A stretch of 64,000 bases of DNA from Schmidtea polychroa (GCA_044892525.1 CM097885.1:13146001-13210000); one strand, 5' to 3'; counted from the first letter of the stretch, positions 9,641 through 19,874 are shown. Numbers and translations: made by a program. Notes: generated by a model from the letters alone, not told the origin.

Positions 9641-9750
9641 AAGTAGTTGCAGAACCTCCGGAGCATTTACCTTGTTTCCTCAAAAATAAGACCACTTCGA
9701 AAATAAGACACTATAACTTTTATAGAACTGTTGAAGTGGTAAATACGTTA

Positions 9751-10694
9751 CACCCAATTCCGAAATTTAATAACTTCTATAATTCACGTTGGTGTGCACA
9801 CCAGTTGAGTGAGTCACCATTTACGTGATAATGAAGTTATTAAATTTCATTTATTCAATAATTTATTAGCAACAAAAATGGTTTTCAGGTAATTTTTTTA
9901 ATTTCAAGTATATTTTAAGACTTGAATTTTGATTTTATATAATTATGAGATCATTATTCAAGTTCTTAAATATTACTGTTAGTCATCATCTATAATATAA
10001 TATATTAATAATTAAATTTCAGGTGTTTTTAGGAAATTTATGATATTTTATGCATTAATATGGAATTATTTCGCTAAAATGTAAGTTAGCTATTTTTATA
10101 TTTATAAATAAATAAAGTAATCACCAAACACATTTATTTTTTTAAGACATTTAGGAAAAAATCGGCGTACATGAATGAAATAGTTTTTTAAATTTTTATA
10201 ATCTTCTTTCTGCAGCTCATTTTCGATGGCTTTTTTCTTTCTGTAAATCAAAAGATCTCGAAGGACCTTCAATATTTGAAATGCTGCCTTCACACATACT
10301 ATAAAATATTTTAATATTTTGTAATTTAATGAATAAAACTTACATTGTATTTTCTTCTTTTTCCCTAAAGCTCAAGGTAGAGCTGTCGGAATCTAAATTA
10401 AAAGTATTTTCTTGCATTTTTTAATAATTTTAAAATAATTATATTTTAACAATATGTTAACAGTTATTTATTTCGGAACAAAAACCTATATAAGAATTTT
10501 GCATGCATTTTTCATTATGTGTTTTGTGTTGGTGTGTTCAGTTATTTTTCTCTCACCTTCACAAAACCTATAATAAAGTTTCTAAATTTCGGAACAATAA
10601 ATTTCTAACCACAGGTAAGTTTGTATGTTCCTATAATATATATTTATTGATTTTTTTTTAGATTATAGAAGTTATTAAATTTCGGAATTAGGTG
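9751..10694 (-). mobile_element. Tc1/mariner-type MITE, 944 bp, copy A
   Basis: 33-bp TIR cacc(c/t)aattccgaaatttaataacttctataat matches 32/33, with TA on both sides. Confidence 0.92.
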
Positions 10695-11519
10695 TATACG
10701 GAGCTGATTTGCATGATTAATATAGCCTCCATTATGTACGTTGGTCAATCCTAAGTTTAATCATCGCGTCTGTGTGCGTTTTGTTTTCTGAATTTGGATT
10801 TTTATTTGTGCGCACACAGACGCGAACAATGTGTTTTTTGCGGTTTTGTGACTTAATTTTTAATTGCTTGAATTTGTTTTAAAAAGTGGAATTTGGAGTT
10901 TTTTCAAGTTTTTTAATTTGTGTAAATAAATGTTTTTGAGATTTTGTTGTTTTAAAAAGATTTGAAAGTGACTTGCAATTTATGAAAAATTTCTAAACGA
11001 AATTTGGAATATGAAGATTTTAACGATTGGAAAATATCAAAGATTATTGAACATAGCGATTTCATTATTTACTCACTTTTGTTGTTCTTTGAAGAGAATT
11101 ATATGACAACCGAAACTAATGATACTTCCAAAATGTTTTATAATATTTCTTGTAAGAATGAATCTAATGGAGCTGAACTTTATAATATATTACCTGAAAA
11201 CATAATTTCTAATTCACAATGGATCTGAATCTACGCTGACAAACAACCATACGAATATATGAAGTAAAAATCACGAAATGCAGGATTACCCACTTTCTCT
11301 TGGTTGCTGTAAAGGCTGAAACAAGTGATTTGTTTTTGTCTTTGACTTTTATTTGAGTACACCTAATTCCAAATATATAAGAGTTTCTTATTTACTTCAT
11401 TTATTCAATTTTATAAATGGTTTTCCAGTTTTTATATAAAGACCTGCACCAATCAGAATAGATATATCTTAGTGGAAACTCAGAATTGTGTGTGCGTGTG
11501 TATAAGAGTTAAATATATA

Positions 11520-12265
11520 CACCAGAAACCACTCCCATATAGTTTGTATAATATTGGTTAGTGTACACACCAATTGGTCTACAATTGGTGACTCACGATT
11601 AGATGAATTTCATTTTTCATGAAATTTATTTTATCCTTTTTAGAAATAGCTTTCAGGTAAGATTTTTAATTTTAAGTAAATTTTAAGGTTCGAATTTTGA
11701 TTTTATATGATTATGAGATCATTATTCAAGTTCTTAAATATTACTTTTAGATAAAATTTGTATTATAAATTATTTTTAATGAATTTTCAGGTTTTTTAGG
11801 AATTTTATGAAATTTATTATAGAATTATTTTGGAATTATTTTGATATAATGTAAGTCAGATATATTTTTAATTATAATTAAATAATCACCAAAAATATTT
11901 ATTTTTCAAAAACATTTCGGGAAAAATCGCCGAGTATGAATAAAATAATTTTTCAGATTTTTTATATTCTTTACTAAGGTCTTTTTTCAGGAAATAGCAT
12001 CAAAGTTTTCAGCCATATTTTTTTACTTCAAAATTGTCTCAGTGGCGCATTTCTATATATCAAAAGTTTGCATGCATTTTTAGTATGTGTTGTGTTTGTG
12101 TGCAGTATTTAATTTTCTACCACTTTTTAGATTTCAATAGTGTAAGGTGTATTTCATTGCACTATCAATGAGAACATCAGGGTGAAATCAAAGCAAGTTT
12201 GTATAATGTAAGATTATTGTTTTTTTTCTTATAATATAGGAAACGTATATCAGCAGTTTCTGGTG
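11520..12265 (-). mobile_element. Tc1/mariner-type MITE, sister family of the 944-bp element
   Basis: TA-caccagaaac...gtttctggtg-TA. The body shares long blocks with 9751-10694, e.g. gattatgagatcattattcaagttcttaaatattact. Confidence 0.8.
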
Positions 12266-12451
12266 TATCGCTTCTTATCACTTCCTATCCTACAGCAGCA
12301 AAATAAATGGCTAATAAATCACATGGCTTATAGATTCACACTTTTTCATAAGTGTTCTAATGACGTGCAAAAAGCTTCGATGATAATTTATTCCTTTTAG
12401 AATTTCATAATGTTAACTTTGTTGAGGTTTTAAAAGTAAATTATTAAATTA

Positions 12452-13106
12452 TATTATAACCCGAGCTAATGGGAAACCCGAGCCAATGGAGAACCCGAGC
12501 GATGAAGAAAACCCGAGCACCGCAATTTGGAAAGGTAAACAAACGAGGAATTCAGAGGGCATAATCCAAACAGCCGGATAAACGAGGGTAAACAAAAGAA
12601 GGGGAACTACGAAGATAGTCAACAGAAATAGCTAATTAGGGAATGATAACCAAAGAAGTCAAAACCAATTAGGTTAAAAATGGGGCAATTACAATGATTA
12701 TGGGAGTATATAAAGAAACTCAAAATTCACATAAAGGGCGGTAGCCTTAGGTAGGGAAGAAGAAACAGACGATAGGATTTCGAGGAATAAAATAGAAGAA
12801 AAGAATTATAAGAGGAATCGAAGAGTTGGAAAGGAATATTAAGAGTTCGAATCAGAGAGAGGAATTAAGCAAAAAGGTGAAACTTATTTTTAAATTGTAC
12901 AAGGTTGAAACCTTCCAGAGCGGAGTCCGATCTGAAATTGTGTGAGAATTGCGGTAATTAATTGTTGAGAGTTGTAAATTTTTATAAAACAAATATACGT
13001 TTGGAGTTTGTGTTTATTTATTTTGGAACACGTGGAGTCAGAGTAACCAACGGTTGATTTTGATATCATAAAACCCAACATATATTTTTGGTGAGTCCGA
13101 CGTGAT
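12452..13106 (+). mobile_element. LTR retrotransposon 5' LTR plus tRNA-Trp-type primer-binding site
   Basis: Begins with acccgagc repeats and ends cccaaca (13080). TGGTGAGTCCGACGTGAT follows at 13089-13106, 16/18 to the tRNA-Trp PBS TGGTGACCCCGACGTGAT. Confidence 0.75.
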
Positions 13107-13209
13107 CAAACGTTGGTGGGCGAATATTGAATAGTGAAAAGAGCTGAAGAAAATTAAAGTAATAAAAATTTGAATAAAATTTGAAATCGGGAAAATTGAA
13201 AGAGGTAGT

Positions 13210-13305
13210 GCTGTTCCTACAAAAACTAAATCTGCAAATGAAATGGCTGATGCGATAAAAGGAATGTTTGCAGATGGCAAACCTATTAATTTACAAGCCG
13301 ATTTA
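13210..13305 (+). pseudogene. Polinton/Maverick retroviral-like (rve) integrase fragment
   Basis: Translates AVPTKTKSANEMADAIKGMFADGKPINLQADL, matching the c-integrase pattern AVPLKxKxxxEVxxAxxxIF...PxxLQTDxG. Confidence 0.75.
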
Positions 13306-13638
13306 GAAAATAACTGTAACTCCACAATGTCTACTGATTTTTGTAAATAAATTATTAAAATCTTTTTCTTTATTTGCTTCCTGGTACAGATCATCGATAA
13401 TAATAACATCACCTTGGCGTAATCTAGATGACCAATTTTTATCAAATCCTTTAGTCATTTTTAATTTACAGAAACTGCTTTGAGTCAATCCATGCTCTTC
13501 ATCTGCACCTCGATGCCAATATATTTTATTAAATTTTGATTTAAAAATGTTTGATTGTAATAAATTACATACAAATAAAGTTTTCCCGCTTCCACTAGGT
13601 CCTACAATTTGATATACCGCGTCATTTCTTAAGTCCAT
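13303..13638 (-). pseudogene. A32/FtsK-HerA-like viral DNA-packaging ATPase, C-terminally truncated (Polinton/adintovirus type)
   Basis: Walker A GPSGSGKT, Walker B IIIDD and the A32-type motif LFTKISRHCGVTVIF. It breaks at the junction with the integrase fragment. Confidence 0.9.
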
Positions 13639-13686
13639 TTTAATTAAATTATTTACTTTAATTTGTTTATAATTAGAATAATTAGA

Positions 13687-14088
13687 ATGATTAGCAACAT
13701 TAATTATAGAGGAAGATGTGTAGTAAATGGAATGAAGTTCCCATCAGGAAAACCTCAACATGTTGAGGACAGAAGTGGAAAATATTCAATTTTATTCTTC
13801 AAGAGCGGGAAATGTAGGATAATGTGATGTAAGAAACCATTACAAGAAAGTGATCTCAAATATCAGATTCAAGATTTAGAAATCCAATCAATTACATTAC
13901 CGTTAGATATCGGTACATGCATTGATTTAAATGCATTGTCAATGAAAACCAATAGTTACTACGAGCCTGAAATAGTTCCAGCTTTACGTATTTTCAAGTA
14001 TAACCCTCTATGTGTAAATGTTTTTCAAGTGGTTATATTAGGGATTAAAACATTTGATTATTTTAATCAAATTCAAGAAATTCATTAA
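13687..14088 (+). pseudogene. Compact TATA-binding-protein-like gene inside the Polinton relic (one internal TGA at 13825-13827)
   Basis: Manual translation: MISNINYRGRC...YSILFFKSGKCRIM*CKKPL...LEIQSITLPLDIGTCIDLNALSMKTNSYYEPEIVPALRIFKYNPLCVNVFQVVILGIKT. Compare TBP repeat motifs ALIFSSGKMVCTGAK and IQNMVGSCD..IRLEGL..YEPELFPGL..LIFVSGKVVLTGAK. Confidence 0.8.
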
Positions 14089-14248
14089 ATCATTAACTAT
14101 AAATATTACAACAAATGAAGAAATATTGGAATATTTATTAAGTTAATTTAATTTGTAGTAGATTGTTGTATTTTTGATGTTATGATTATTTTTGACTATA
14201 ACCAAATTAGGCTTCGTTTTTTTTCGAACATAAGCGTTCCCGTAGAGT

Positions 14249-14765
14249 TGGGGAAATTAGATTAAAAAAAACTATATAGCGATAATTTACAATGGTAAAT
14301 AATCGCTATAGTAAAATGACAAATTAAATAAAAATTGATAAAAAATTTAAAAATCTATAACTCCATAACGCCGAAGCTAAAGATAATTGTGCGAAATAAA
14401 CGTGGAAATAAAAGGGAATATAAATCGAATTGACTCAATTTATTAACAAAATATTATCCAAAGAATAAACCAAGTTTCAAAAGAAAACAGAAGCCAAATA
14501 AACTTAAACTATATTGTCAAGCAAATAAACTTAGAAACCAAAGAAAACAGAAACAAAGAAGTCGAAGAGATTCGAAACCTTTATAACATCAATCTCTCCC
14601 TCAACAATATAAAGTGCGTATCTATTTTATTGTTTTTTTAAATAGAAGTTGTAATTTTAAAGTATTGTTCTTTACACTCATTTGATTATTGTAATATTTT
14701 GTAACTTACATACATTCACCCCAGCTGTCCCGAGACAGTTTATTTACTGGTGACTCGGCTGGGCT
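14249..14765 (+). mobile_element. Probable LTR with PBS-like TGG motif inserted in the Polinton relic
   Basis: tggggaa...ttcacccca termini, then tggtgactcggctggg. Boundaries are uncertain. Confidence 0.4.
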
Positions 14766-14942
14766 CTTCAAATCTCTATTACATACGCAATCATACATCA
14801 ATTACTCAAATATAAGCAACAAATATAAACCAACAAATACAAAAAAACAAATATAAACCAACGAATACTACAATATAATTAATTTAATTAATTGTGTTTA
14901 AATTAGCTGAATATCTACAAAAACATAAATTCAAAAAAATGG

Positions 14943-15260
14943 ATGATAGCTTATAGAATCAAGCAATTAACGGGGATCAATATAGAAGAAATTATACGAA
15001 AGCATTACGAATCTTTCCAAGAATCAAGATTTAAATGCATAGATAATTGTGAAGTATGTACCGATCCATTGAAATTACCATGTCCGTTTAAGTGTAGATG
15101 CTGCCAAGAATATAAAATGAAAGAAATTGTTCATATTTTAATTAAGAAAAGCAAATATTGGATGAATAAATTTTATATTTTTACTTTTGTTCTTCTTATG
15201 TGTTTAGTTAATTTTTATGCGTCTAGTTATGTGTCTAGTTATTTTTATGTGTTTAGTTAA
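14943..15260 (+). CDS. Small Cys-rich ORF, possible Polinton accessory gene
   Basis: Intronless, contains CIDNCEVC...CPFKCRCC, and lies between the TBP-like gene and the putative terminus. The 3' third may be read-through into repeats. Confidence 0.4.
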   Translation: MIAYRIKQLTGINIEEIIRKHYESFQESRFKCIDNCEVCTDPLKLPCPFKCRCCQEYKMKEIVHILIKKSKYWMNKFYIFTFVLLMCLVNFYASSYVSSYFYVFS

Positions 15261-15289
15261 TTTTTATGTGTTGTATAGTATCTGGTTGA

Positions 15290-15322
<33 letters not shown>

Positions 15323-16066
15323 TCATTAAAACTTTCATTGACTTCAAAAAATTTTTTAATTAAAATTTCCATTAAAAAAAATCATCTTAAAAAATTTCAA
15401 TTCTCAATCACCGACTATTATTCCAACTATTATTCCAACTTTAATTTACTTATTTAACTTTAAATTAAAATTATTGACCATTGATTACTTAATTTTAAAA
15501 TTTGGACATTAATTTACTGTAATTCAAAAATCTGAGCCCATAATTTACTTTAAGTTAAAAATTTGCCATGCTTTTTTTTATTTAAGATCGCCTTTTTGTA
15601 TTGAAAATCACAGGACCATGGAGACCCCCTCACTACAGTCTGAATAATCCATGCTTAGTAGGATATTGTATTGAATAAAAAAAATTTGTATTGAAAATCA
15701 CAGAAAAAAAAGTGTGACTTACCACAGCAATTATGTAATCAAAGGTTGCAGCCACTAACTACCTACTACATTACCAGCACACGCAAATGCCTTCCATTCT
15801 GTCATATAGAGCAGAAAATTCGAAAAATATCTCTTCGATCACCAATTTGAAAGTAAAAGATTTTATTGTTTTAATTGACATAATATTTATAAGCGATATT
15901 AATCAAATAGTTTATTGAGAAATTAAAAACAACATTTTAATTGTGACAACAGAATTATGAATAGAAAAAGATCATTTCATGGATCATTGAGTAAATAAAC
16001 AAATTCAAAGAAATCTGATTGACTGAGGAGACGGATCTTCCATTTCGTGGAGAGGACTGATTGCCA

Positions 16067-16650
16067 TCAATGTGAAGGCTTTTTAAATAATAACGGCTGT
16101 GAGTTGTTAGGTAATTGATGATCTGAGTTTAATAACAAAGTATTGTATGATTTTGACAGGATCAAGTCTCTCTGCCATATTGGCCACATGTTCGTATAGT
16201 TATTGAATGAATTCGGTAGAGTTGGTGATAATTCTGATTTTGGTTCAACCGTTGATTGCTTGACGATGACCGATGGATTCAGTGACTGACTTTTAAGCAG
16301 CTTATCAATGAAGAAATTCGGGGTGGATTCTTGAGATTTATTTCTCATCTCAATTGAGTCGGAATTCACAGATGAACAACTGCGGGTTTGATGACTTTCA
16401 CTGTCTTGGCAATCTTGTTTGTTAGTCAGTGATTTGGTTTTTCGTCTTCGTCGTCGAAAATTTCCATGATCAAACATTTCTTCAAAGTTCTCATTCAGGG
16501 TCCAGTAATTGCCCTTTCCAGGATTATTTTTGTCACGGGCAATTTTGATGAAACAATCATTGAGACTGAGATTGTGCCTAATTGAGTTCTGCCATCCTTG
16601 CTTGTTTCGATGGTAAAACGGGAAATTATCTGTAATGAATTTGTAGATTC
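16067..16650 (-). CDS. Forkhead transcription factor (FoxL1/FoxC-like), exon 2
   Basis: Acceptor ttgaatag|GA at 16651/16650. Reads (G)[70 protein letters not shown]..., with an eh1-like FFIDKLL and the stop at 16067. Confidence 0.95.
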
Positions 16651-17348
16651 CTATTCAATTAATAAGTTAAATTGTTTGGGTTATACAAAATATATATGAA
16701 ATTAAAATATAAAAATTACAAATTATCAAAATCAATTAAATATTAATTAAAAAGTCAAGTGTAAAATTTAATATTTTTCAGGAGAAGGGGGCGGAAGTGG
16801 TAACCGATGACAAATGAGATTTTGAAAACGTATAAAATAATTTTAAACTGATTAGAGGTTCAGGATCCAAAAACCAAATTATGGAAGCCCATAAAGCTGG
16901 GAATATCCAGAAAGATTTGGTAATTTCTTTTGATTATAGTCAAATCTTACTTGTTTCGATTTTACTTACTTATTTATTTACTTCAACCACATTTTGAATC
17001 AAAGTAGACATAGTTTTACAATGACTGCATCTTGTGAGTTTTTTTTCGTTTTTTTCCCAAAAGAGGACTTAATTTTATTTTTAACAGTCAACTTCATATT
17101 TAAGCCGAATAATAATTATATATTTCGATAGCTGATATAGTAAGGCTTGCTTGTGAAAAGTTCGAATGATTCTGATATCAAATATGGAAATTGAAAAGAT
17201 ATATAAAAAGATATATATTCTGTATATTTTACTTTTCTTACTATCGAAAAGGCAAAAATTCTATTGAAACAAAAAAAATTATTCGATGTGTAATCGATAT
17301 ATCATTTATTTTTATTTTGACAAAAGATCAATTATTTTTATATTATAA

Positions 17349-19874
17349 CAAGGGTGGGCACGCATGGGTTCAATAAGAGCCATTTTCCGAAAATTTATTT
17401 TTTACAGAGCCACCATAGTAAAGTACATATTTTTTTTATTTCATTAATTTGATTAAAGAGACTTAAACGCTATTAAAAAAACAAAATAATTATTTCAAAC
17501 ATTAAGTAACAAACATAAAAATCCATTAATAAAAAGTAATAAAATTTCTTGAATTAACGAAAACTTTTGGTCAAATCTTTGATATTTGGTGTATACTTTG
17601 TTAAAGCTGTTCGCAGCAATTCTGTAAGATGCTGATTGGTCAACTGTGAACGATATTTCGACTTTACGAACTTCATTGTGGAGTACAAAGATTCACAACA
17701 ATATGTTGTACCAAAAATTGAAATTAGACGGCAAGCAGCTTGTTTTAAGTGTGGATATTTTGCCTCTGGTACGAGTTTCCAAAATTCAACTATAGAAGTA
17801 GATTTATGGTGCATTTGCAAAGCCTGGTCCTCTTTCATATCTAATAACTCCAATTCCCCAACCGCTTTTTTAACAAGTATTACTTCAGAAATTGGAAATC
17901 CATCTTCAATAATATCACAAATAAATGGGTTCACAAAAAATGCAAATGTAGATTTATAACTTTTCAAATCTTCAAACCTACATTTGAAATCCGCTTGCAA
18001 TTCTTCCAATTTTTCACTGTATTCGTTTACTTTTTCTTCTGTAATATCAATTATATTAGCTTTTATTCGTGGAAAATGATTAAATATTTTCGACATAAGA
18101 TCGTTCACAAAAAGCCGAAGTTTAGCTTCAAAACTAAATAACGTTTGTGACAAATCAATAATTATCTTTTCTTTTCCTTGTAAAGCCAAATTTAATGTTT
18201 GCAAATGTTCCATAATGTCTGTAAGGAACATTAAGTCAGAAAGCCAAGTTTCATTTTCTAATTCTGGGTATGCTATTCCGTTTTCTTTGGTAAATATTAT
18301 GATAGGATTTAGGAGTTCCACAAAACGGTTCAAAACATTGTAAGTTGACAGCCATCTAACAATACACCATAAGGAGACATCATTAGGCAAATCATCTGTT
18401 TCGTCATTTAATCTTAATTCTTCCAAAAAGTTTTTAAATTGACGATGTGTTTTGGCATTTGTTCTAATTAAATTCACAATCTTCAAAACAATCTTCCACA
18501 CATTTTCGTATTTAAAGTACTTCGCTATGAGATGCTCGCGATGAATTATGCAGTGAAGAGATAAAAAGTGAGGAATATTAGGATCTCTGTTTAAAAGACC
18601 AATGACACCTTGATTTTTCCCCATCATTGCAGGCGCTCCGTCTGTCGCAACACTTACAAGTGTGTCACGAGCCAATTCGAACCTGTCCATAACTACATCA
18701 AGCGCAGTTTTGACATCGATACCGCGAGTTGTTTCGAGAAGAGCTACTAGGTCTAACATTTCTTCCTTCACTTTTACGTCAGAAGATAAAAAGCGGACAA
18801 AAACGGCTAATTGCGGAACATCCTGAATGTCAGTAGACTCGTCGAGAGCTAAACTGAATGCTGTACAATTTTTTAAATCACACATCAAATTATTTTCAAC
18901 ATTTTCGCTAATTTGGCCAATTCGACGCTCAGTTGTACGACGTGAAATAGGAATACGTGAGATCAATTTATGTAGTTTTGAGTTGTCCGGATCCAAAACT
19001 TTAATCACTTCTTCCAAGTTTCTCTTAATAAATTCACCTTCTCCATATGGACGTTTAGCACGAGCTATATTCCAAGCTATCAAAAAACTAGCTTCGTTGG
19101 CACTGTCATCTTCTCGACTAAAAGTAGATAATAGTCCTTGTTGGGCTTGAAGCCCTGATTGCAATGACTTAAGTTTTTCTGTCCGCAAGTTTGAATTGAG
19201 TGGATATAGAATTGATAAGTGTGGATGACTTACTTCATAGTGTCGACGTAAATTGGTTACTTTGTAGTTGGAAATTGTACCTTTACAAATAAGACACAAC
19301 GATTTACCATTATTGTCAATAAAAAAAAACTTTTCTGTCCATTCTTCTTGAAAAGTTCTATTTTCTTGTCTGTATTTTCGTTTTTTGATGTTTTCTGATG
19401 TCATTATAATAATAAATTTAAATAACTATATGGCTGAAATTTAAACAAAATAATAAAAAGACATTAATTTAATTTTAATTAGTTTAAAATTTTAAAATGC
19501 TTCATAAAAAAATCTTCTTACCAAATTTTTCAAAAAACACGAATAGAAAACTATACTAAAATATACAAACGACCGCAATCTTGTACAAACAAAATAATAA
19601 CCAATCAAAATTCACTAAATTTATTTTTGATGCTTCTCTCTCGTTGTTATAACAAAGCGCCGCCTACTACAAAATAATTTTAAAAAGCAGTAAAATGTGA
19701 AAAACAATGTTTCATTAATTTTTGACATTTATGAAAATACAATTGCAACAAAAAATTTTTTCTCAAAACATTTAGTGAAAAATTTAAAAATAAAAAATCG
19801 AATTCGATTATCAAGAATTCAATTATCAATGAGCCGCAGTTTACTCAACGAAGAGCCGCAGTTGCCCACCGTTG
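17349..19874 (-). mobile_element. Full-length hAT transposon (Buster/Charlie/SPIN-like) inside the Fox intron
   Basis: TIRs caagggtgggca / tgcccaccgttg match 11/12. Perfect TSD tattataa at 17341-17348 and 19875-19882 (nnnTAnnn type). Subterminal gagccgcag repeats. Confidence 0.97.
17554..19404 (-). CDS. hAT transposase, 616 aa (GTF2IRD2/ZBED5-like)
   Basis: BED finger CLIC...LRRHYEVSH, FSLALDESTD, ATDGAPAM, HCIIH, VRWLS and GTTYCCESLYS. Uninterrupted ORF. Confidence 0.97.
   Translation of the reverse strand: MTSENIKKRKYRQENRTFQEEWTEKFFFIDNNGKSLCLICKGTISNYKVTNLRRHYEVSHPHLSILYPLNSNLRTEKLKSLQSGLQAQQGLLSTFSREDDSANEASFLIAWNIARAKRPYGEGEFIKRNLEEVIKVLDPDNSKLHKLISRIPISRRTTERRIGQISENVENNLMCDLKNCTAFSLALDESTDIQDVPQLAVFVRFLSSDVKVKEEMLDLVALLETTRGIDVKTALDVVMDRFELARDTLVSVATDGAPAMMGKNQGVIGLLNRDPNIPHFLSLHCIIHREHLIAKYFKYENVWKIVLKIVNLIRTNAKTHRQFKNFLEELRLNDETDDLPNDVSLWCIVRWLSTYNVLNRFVELLNPIIIFTKENGIAYPELENETWLSDLMFLTDIMEHLQTLNLALQGKEKIIIDLSQTLFSFEAKLRLFVNDLMSKIFNHFPRIKANIIDITEEKVNEYSEKLEELQADFKCRFEDLKSYKSTFAFFVNPFICDIIEDGFPISEVILVKKAVGELELLDMKEDQALQMHHKSTSIVEFWKLVPEAKYPHLKQAACRLISIFGTTYCCESLYSTMKFVKSKYRSQLTNQHLTELLRTALTKYTPNIKDLTKSFR

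What the first reader, a model, noticed from the sequence alone, without database searches (positions are those of the whole stretch)
13210..15764. Collapsed Polinton/adintovirus-like provirus ~300 bp downstream of the Fox stop codon
Seen: an rve integrase fragment (+, 13210-13305) fused tail-to-tail to a truncated A32-like ATPase (-), then the TBP-like gene, a Cys-rich ORF and a repeat-rich end. Known: integrase plus packaging ATPase is the Polinton/Maverick signature. Inference: a 15-20 kb element was reduced by deletions and invaded by LTRs. The gene order INT><ATPase<>TBP gives a handle for rebuilding the parent.
Basis: partly seen in the sequence, partly recalled or inferred. Interest (0 to 1): 0.75.

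Follow-up and report, generated by a model that had tools for sequence, protein, structure and literature searches.

The report
Polinton stump from TBP-carrying virus family
This is a broken, single-copy right end of a common 16-kb virus-like transposon; the fragment itself is ordinary debris, but its family carries a trimmed TATA-binding protein and a matching promoter box that likely form a built-in switch for the virus-particle genes.

Summary
The pieces are real; parts of the interpretation are wrong. Window 13210-15767 holds about 1.8 kb from the right end of a high-copy Polinton family (at least 150 copies). Eight of 10 siblings fetched span 15.5-17.1 kb with inverted repeats and perfect 6-bp target duplications. 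The integrase piece is Polinton DNA (95-96%), not Gypsy, but it is inverted: in all 10 siblings integrase and ATPase share a strand, so INT><ATPase is a one-off scar, not the parent's order. The LTR on the left is a truncated neighbour fused by deletion; the real insert (14154-14872) is a TIR element, not an LTR. ATPase, TBP-like and Cys-rich genes are all broken here. The interest lies in the family: a 158-aa TBP keeps the saddle, four DNA-contact phenylalanines and the TFIIB-side glutamates but lacks the first-lobe helices; a TATAAAC box precedes ATPase, capsid-like and protease genes (6 vs 0.3 expected), not TBP. Integrase and protease carry short GT-AG introns. A TBP-labelled gene in such viruses is in one published figure legend, and this scan already noted the TBP and box at other copies in this genome.

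The parts
12420..13209 (+). Truncated LTR retrotransposon: 5' LTR (12420-13080, about 340 nt lost at 12454/12458), primer-binding site 13089-13106, leader cut before gag. Neighbour fused to the Polinton stump, not part of it.
   Evidence: 89-90% to other loci, none matching beyond 13209; 5 of 5 fetched go on into the same leader; the ORF that follows in L023 is Retrotrans_gag plus zinc knuckles
13208..13306 (+). Inverted 99-nt piece of the Polinton integrase, ending exactly at the end of exon 1; 2-nt and 1-nt overlaps with its neighbours
   Evidence: 95-96% to the opposite strand of 10 of 10 siblings; junction unique; exon end
13306..13638 (-). First 111 of 207 codons of the A32-like packaging ATPase (Walker A and B kept, 6 nt lost after 13453)
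13662..13671 (-). TATAAACAAA box about 35 nt before the ATPase start
13687..14146 (+). Broken mini-TBP gene: stop at 13825-13827, 9 nt lost after 14026, 8 nt lost after 14075
   Evidence: the sibling gene is 158 codons, TBP E 3.4e-16
14154..14872 (.). 719-nt non-coding TIR element (TGTAGTA...TACTACA) inserted between TBP and the Cys-rich ORF, with a roughly 8-bp target duplication
   Evidence: absent from 10 of 10 siblings; dispersed 92-95% copies; flanks match 7/8 here, 8/8 in L028, 6/8 in L029 and L031, unclear in L030 and L032
14939..15260 (+). Cys-rich ORF of unknown family, broken by loss of about 98 nt just after its start
   Evidence: no Pfam family for the 115-aa sibling ORF
15261..15767 (.). 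Shortened, repeat-rich terminal inverted repeat ending in the family motif CTAACTACCTACT; the next 6 nt (ACATTA) have no partner
   Evidence: 507 nt here against 1158-1680 in 9 siblings; motif; no matching left end in the window, in 50 kb to its left or by pattern
16067..16654 (-). Last exon of a host forkhead gene, bystander; poly(A) signals at 15916 and 15867 lie before the element
   Evidence: Forkhead E 1.1e-25; signals

Best explanation
The stretch is a single-copy, broken right end of a high-copy 16-kb Polinton family, likely left when a deletion fused it to a neighbouring LTR retrotransposon and flipped a 99-nt piece of the integrase gene into the joint. Shown: family membership, inversion, uniqueness, broken genes, missing left end, later TIR-element insertion. 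Inferred: one repair event with template switching at 1-2-nt overlaps (about 0.5) or an inversion of 1.4 kb followed by a deletion (about 0.4); the locus now likely does nothing. In the parent family the mini-TBP is predicted to be made first from an ordinary promoter, then to bind the TATAAAC box before the packaging, capsid-like and protease genes and recruit host TFIIB and RNA polymerase II (about 0.5, untested).
For: At least 150 ATPase matches at 97% aa and 150 TBP matches at 99-100%, 149 without a stop. 8 of 10 siblings have both AGTAG ends and perfect 6-bp duplications (7 distinct sites). Sibling genes: rve, chromodomain, Adeno_PX, Pox_A32, TBP, Peptidase_C5; polymerase and capsid by Atlas look-alikes. 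Window copy 95.9% to siblings, which are 99.2% to each other. Junction unique. TBP model pLDDT 95, Z 12.7, rmsd 2.4 over 145 residues to TBP; F18 67/74, F38, F97, F113 and E95 74/74, E93 70/74. Box 6 observed on the coding strand vs 0.33 in 1000 shuffles; TATAAAC 32-48 nt before 10 of 12 ATPases of metagenome relatives and before 0 of 15 TBP rows; 0 of 16 ORFs of an unrelated TBP-less Polinton nearby have it.
Against: The two inner junctions were not bridged in the contigs listed, so an assembly error there is not excluded. Pfam gave no polymerase or capsid family directly and the PDB search of the polymerase was blank. The box is missing before integrase, both penton-like genes and the 132-aa gene in the sibling examined, is exact or near before only 3-4 of 7 capsid genes of relatives, and TATAAAC occurs 10 times elsewhere in the TBP-less control stretch L100. 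The control is one element. TATAAA is also a normal host TBP site (recalled), so host TBP could read the box. Several metagenome loci are near-duplicates.
Confidence: 0.85

Rival explanations
1. The fragment is a member of a non-autonomous, still mobile mini-Polinton or LTR-Polinton chimera whose gene order is INT><ATPase<>TBP.
For: One terminus and the ATPase promoter box are kept; the genome holds other rearranged copies with two inverted arms (L108-L109).
Against: The junction occurs once in 781 Mb; no LTR match runs past 13209; no left end or paired duplication.
Confidence: 0.03
2. The integrase piece belongs to the neighbouring LTR retrotransposon and the ATPase is a cellular P-loop gene.
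For: The piece follows the LTR leader directly on the same strand and has no Pfam hit of its own.
Against: 95-96% DNA identity to the Polinton integrase; the LTR family continues into gag there; ATPase relatives are PF04665 proteins in Polinton contexts.
Confidence: 0.01
3. The fragment has been kept because it regulates or extends the Fox gene 300 nt away.
For: Close spacing; the terminus-Fox joint is real in two runs of one study.
Against: Two AATAAA signals lie between the Fox stop and the element; all three genes are broken and the repeat is shortened; with hundreds of copies a gene-near insertion is expected.
Confidence: 0.05
4. Family level: the mini-TBP is not a late-gene activator but a decoy or repressor (it occupies TATA boxes or titrates TFIIB), and host TBP reads the TATAAAC box.
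For: It lacks the first-lobe helices, which in cellular TBP carry contacts for TFIIA, TAF1 and Mot1 (recalled); the box is close to a normal TATA box.
Against: The box has a fixed non-canonical C, sits before particle genes and not before TBP across relatives; residues such as C109 and N111 are invariant and differ from cellular TBP, as expected for altered specificity.
Confidence: 0.3

Closest known systems
Mavericks/Polintons (PMC8097293, passages read; PMC10748475, passages read)
   Same: Inverted repeats, 6-bp duplication, integrase, polymerase, ATPase, protease and capsid-like genes in the siblings; most loci in genomes are decayed (96% in vertebrates per PMC8097293), as this one is.
   Different: End motif AGTAGG rather than (AG)3 or (AGT)2; a TBP gene; GT-AG inserts of 42 nt in integrase (10 of 10) and 40 nt in protease (9 of 10), where intact vertebrate elements are reported intronless.
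Adintoviruses / MELD viruses (PMC8502044: section 3.4 whole, part 2 of 6 of the text, passages, supplement searched; preprint 10.1101/697771 passages)
   Same: Same gene kit with a pX-like protein; the legend of Fig. [quoted passage not shown]
   Different: The passages read give no structure, family or promoter for that TBP, and the figure is not held, so I cannot say whether it is this family. Alpha or Beta class not tested.
Cellular TBP (PF00352)
   Same: Whole saddle aligns (Z 12.7, 145 of 181 residues); four phenylalanines and the second-repeat glutamates kept.
   Different: First lobe about 11 + 13 residues shorter, with no helices in the model; 22-29% identity; own long-branched group in a quick tree.
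TBP-like late or intermediate factors of large DNA viruses (NCLDV TBPs; herpesvirus BcRF1 type)
   Same: Same fold: 28 BFVD matches at E <= 0.001, best 2e-8; BcRF1 weak at E 0.037. Reading a variant TATA box for late genes is their known role (recalled).
   Different: Those are larger proteins of 18% identity or so in genomes ten times the size; no close kinship shown.
Planarian Polintons under piRNA control (PMC8532177, PMC10558129; passages read)
   Same: Polintons are named as actively repressed elements in Schmidtea mediterranea; this genome's size, four large contigs and low GC fit that animal (recalled, not tested).
   Different: Neither text mentions TBP (0 occurrences) or gene content.

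Membership tests
Polinton/Maverick (sibling family) | [quoted passage not shown] | tested here: met
   8 of 10 siblings, 7 distinct sites
Polinton/Maverick (sibling family) | rve integrase | tested here: met
   rve E 1.2e-8 above cut-off; second exon rve_3 and Chromo below cut-off
Polinton/Maverick (sibling family) | Protein-primed family B polymerase | tested here: met
   Indirect: Atlas clusters with PF03175 and PF02945 at 0.94-0.96; tblastn E 2e-78 to a PF03175 protein. Direct Pfam gave only Endonuclease_7
Polinton/Maverick (sibling family) | A32-like packaging ATPase | tested here: met
Polinton/Maverick (sibling family) | Adenain-type protease | tested here: met
   Peptidase_C5 E 3.6e-5 above cut-off; adenovirus protease best PDB match, E 0.03
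Polinton/Maverick (sibling family) | Double jelly-roll major capsid protein | tested here: inconclusive
   Atlas score 0.98 to clusters with PF21738 on 24-30% of members; no Pfam hit; single-sequence fold failed, pLDDT 30
Polinton/Maverick (sibling family) | Minor capsid protein | tested here: inconclusive
   Two paralogous ORFs of 338 and 341 aa beside the capsid-like gene, no Pfam hit; label is recalled from gene position
Polinton/Maverick (sibling family) | End motif (AG)3 or (AGT)2 | tested here: inconclusive
   Ends read AGTAGGTAG, a near variant (motifs from PMC8097293)
Complete Polinton (this window copy) | Both ends, paired duplication, polymerase, capsid and protease genes | tested here: not met
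   One end only; no such genes of this family in the window or 50 kb left and 20 kb right
LTR retrotransposon integrase (13210-13305) | DNA continuity with the neighbouring LTR family | tested here: not met
Solo LTR (14154-14872) | 4-6-bp duplication (recalled) | tested here: not met
   8-bp duplication, perfect in L028
TBP | Two-lobed saddle fold | tested here: met
   (model of the sibling protein)
TBP | Four DNA-intercalating phenylalanines and TFIIB-side glutamates | tested here: met
   their roles in cellular TBP are recalled
TBP | Helices on the convex face of both lobes | tested here: not met
   No helix in residues 1-80 of a pLDDT-95 model; two gaps against two-repeat TBPs
TBP | Binds a TATA box and supports initiation | not testable with these tools
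   needs bench work
Alpha or Beta adintovirus | Polymerase clade; PLA2X or GasderminX accessory gene | not tested
   No polymerase tree built; a 108-aa protein hits Adeno_PX

The most novel reading that the evidence does not exclude
A whole clade of Polintons runs the smallest known private transcription switch: a 145-160-aa TBP stripped of its first-lobe helices, out of reach of host TBP regulators, that reads a TATAAAC box to turn on packaging, capsid and protease genes with host polymerase II. With hundreds of open copies and spliceosomal introns, this family would show that such elements have a nuclear, staged, virus-like cycle.
Probability: 0.45. Interest if true: 0.72.

Novelty: new variant of a known kind. 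Interest (0 to 1): 0.4.

Why it matters
The locus itself matters little: it is one of many decayed copies and misleads about gene order. The family matters more. How Polintons time their particle genes is an open question, and a conserved mini-TBP with a box before those genes makes it directly testable by binding and reporter assays. It would parallel the TBP-like late factors of much larger DNA viruses, and it is a natural deletion experiment on which TBP surfaces are dispensable. Short GT-AG introns in integrase and protease point to dependence on the host's nuclear splicing. In six literature searches I found only a figure-legend label for TBP in this virus group; two key reviews were not held and Repbase was not searched.

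Tried and rejected
Splice-mediated origin of the integrase-ATPase joint: the piece ends at a donor site, but no AG precedes the ATPase side in the sibling, so rejected; the coincidence is unexplained. Search for the lost left end: none in the window, 50 kb left or 20 kb right; no exact ACATTA-terminus match, 24 one-mismatch hits elsewhere vs 8 in the control. Expression: no RNA holder listed; contigs laid on a sibling showed no joint over either intron, and reads seem cut at the integrase one. Capsid fold from a single sequence failed. Polymerase had no PDB match. Viral contigs gave only 5 distant TBPs without family genes and no ATPase relative, so no broad TBP-less control. The TBP tree is the quick version; one row I had labelled two-repeat (P0233, long branch) fell among the short proteins. 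No complex prediction was run, since a TBP-TFIIB pair would pass by likeness to solved structures. Supplement of PMC8502044 (one file held as text) had no hit for TBP, TATA or planarian names; figures and bioRxiv supplements could not be seen and may show which viruses carry TBP.

Full report
Observation. The forkhead gene's stop is at 16067-16069 (-). The element's true end is 15767, 300 nt from that stop.

The parent family. The window is G000:C1:13146001-13210000 in a 781-Mb genome. The ATPase piece has 4309 first-look candidates; the 149 others among the 150 scored are 97% identical in protein. I fetched 20 kb around 10 of them, chosen among minus-strand hits with a 208-codon open frame, so the sample leans to well-kept copies. 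Eight of 10 have both ends starting AGTAGGTAG, span 15,456-17,077 nt and have perfect 6-bp duplications; two share flanks, so 7 sites are distinct. Their layout is constant: a long polymerase-like ORF, protease, 407-aa capsid-like ORF, a 132-aa ORF, two 340-aa paralogues, integrase, a pX-like protein and the ATPase on one strand, then TBP and the Cys-rich ORF on the other. Pfam confirms rve, Adeno_PX, Pox_A32, TBP and Peptidase_C5. Polymerase and capsid rest on Atlas look-alikes and, for the polymerase, on similarity to a PF03175 protein; direct Pfam and PDB searches missed them and the capsid fold failed.

What happened at this locus. About 1.84 kb of Polinton DNA remains. The integrase piece matches all 10 siblings at 95-96% on the opposite strand, 1.28 kb from the ATPase break. 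In siblings, and in 10 of 10 metagenome loci with both genes, integrase and ATPase are co-oriented. A pattern over the joint matches once in the genome. The tail-to-tail order is therefore a local scar. To the left, 12420-13209 is an LTR with primer-binding site and leader; no match of this family passes 13209, and 5 of 5 fetched loci continue into the leader before a gag gene. No DNA of the Polinton family lies left of it in the window or 50 kb beyond, so the two elements were neighbours joined by a deletion. The joints overlap by 2 nt and 1 nt. One repair event with template switching or an inversion followed by a deletion both fit; this step is inferred. The 719-nt insert at 14154-14872 is absent from siblings, has dispersed copies, short inverted ends and an 8-bp duplication, perfect in 1 of 5 other copies and 6/8 in 2: a DNA-transposon-type element, not an LTR. 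The copy is 95.9% identical to siblings that are 99.2% identical to each other; against one sibling dN/dS is 0.11 for the ATPase part and 0.27 for TBP, on small counts. It is thus an older insertion whose lineage was under selection before it decayed. Contigs of two runs of one study bridge the terminus and the Fox gene; the inner joints were not bridged among the pieces listed. Two AATAAA signals lie between the Fox stop and the element, so the gene is likely a bystander.

The family's TBP. All 150 scored TBP matches in the genome are 99-100% identical and 149 have no stop. The protein has 123 relatives of mostly 144-160 aa in metagenomes and 114 representatives at E <= 1e-10, a list that includes cellular TBPs. 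Of 56 metagenome loci fetched with the family alignment, 23 hold at least one other gene of the Polinton kit, most of the rest being short; the TBP is divergent from the ATPase in 2 of 16 and co-oriented in 14, so its place varies while the gene persists. A model from 74 sequences has pLDDT 95 and no helix in its first 80 residues; it aligns with whole TBP cores at Z 12.7, rmsd 2.4, 145 residues. The first lobe is about 11 and 13 residues shorter on either side of its central strands. The four phenylalanines and the two glutamates of the second stirrup are conserved; in cellular TBP these kink DNA and bind TFIIB, while the missing helices serve TFIIA, TAF1 and Mot1 (recalled). A quick tree of 33 short and 28 two-repeat proteins separates the short ones on a long branch (SH-aLRT 100), with one long-branched exception.

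The box. Earlier notes of this scan on other copies in this genome pointed to a shared TATA-like motif, which I then tested. In one sibling TATAAAC[AC]AA lies 34-35 nt before the ATPase, a small ORF, the pX-like gene and the protease, and 42 nt before the capsid-like gene; 6 occur on the coding strand against 0.33 in 1000 shuffles, none on the other; 9 of 10 siblings have 5 or 6. It is absent before integrase, both paralogues, the 132-aa gene, polymerase, TBP and the Cys-rich ORF. In relatives TATAAAC precedes 10 of 12 ATPases, 6 of 10 pX-like genes and 3-4 of 7 capsid-like genes, but 0 of 15 TBP rows, 5 of which have an ordinary TATA box at the same distance. An unrelated Polinton left of the window has no mini-TBP and no TATAAAC within 60 nt of 16 ORFs, though the heptamer occurs elsewhere in it. 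The window keeps one box at 13662-13671. The most likely reading, untested, is an early mini-TBP that switches on particle genes; a decoy role with host TBP reading the box is the main rival.

Introns. Integrase is interrupted by a 42-nt GT-AG insert in 10 of 10 siblings, inside a motif that is uninterrupted in 7 metagenome relatives; the protease has a 40-nt one in 9 of 10. Splicing is inferred, not shown.

What is known. Polinton features and the rarity of intact, intronless vertebrate copies come from passages of PMC8097293. PMC8502044 lists TBP as a gene label in the legend of Fig. 5 (section 3.4 and part 2 of 6 read, one supplement searched without hits; preprint passages). PMC10748475 passages have no TBP. 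PMC8532177 and PMC10558129 passages name planarian Polintons as piRNA targets. PMC12166617 passages report introner-derived introns in dinoflagellate elements of this group. Searches listed no paper on the structure or promoter of this TBP family; two reviews were not held.

Verdict. The locus is a decayed, rearranged Polinton end and ordinary in itself. Its family is a variant of a known kind whose mini-TBP and box are worth testing, already noted by this scan at better copies. Interest 0.4.

Noticed in passing
L099-L101 (G000:C1, about 13,106,000-13,129,000, left of the window): A second, unrelated Polinton: PF03175 polymerase about 30% identical to this family's, integrase-like and ATPase-like ORFs, no mini-TBP.
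   Followed up: partly
window 17554-19425 (-): 623-aa open hAT/Spin-type transposase (Dimer_Tnp_hAT, zf-C2H2_12, DUF4371), upstream of the Fox exon; a similar ORF start also appears in L101.
   Followed up: no
window 13305/13306: The inverted integrase piece ends exactly at the exon-intron border of the parent gene; no splice acceptor on the other side, so unexplained.
   Followed up: partly
L108-L109 (G000:C1:42,578,000-42,598,000): A palindrome-like derivative with two polymerase arms in opposite directions and two nested pairs of end motifs.
   Followed up: no
G000:C1:213,933,622-213,946,540; C2:165,603,000-165,615,000 and others: ATPase-TBP units in tandem at about 4-kb spacing, and facing pairs about 10 kb apart, suggest arrays and inverted derivatives of the family.
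   Followed up: no
L007-L008 and L009-L010: Two siblings share the same target duplication and flanks (a host segmental duplication); L007-L008 also has an internal 1.18-kb duplication with a second integrase exon.
   Followed up: no
L006:6930-7274 (window 14939-15260): The 115-aa Cys-rich ORF co-oriented with TBP has no Pfam family and no tblastn match in the 61 outside loci; a lineage-specific gene beside the inverted repeat.
   Followed up: partly
window 9876-10197 and 11644-11962; 9749-10696: Old direct repeat at 1.77-kb spacing (80-84%) and a 35-nt inverted pair 878 nt apart, likely decayed small transposons.
   Followed up: no
L005:3991-8277: The family's polymerase carries an Endonuclease_7 (HNH-type) stretch, as described for one polymerase class of nematode and oomycete elements in PMC10748475; kinship not tested.
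   Followed up: no
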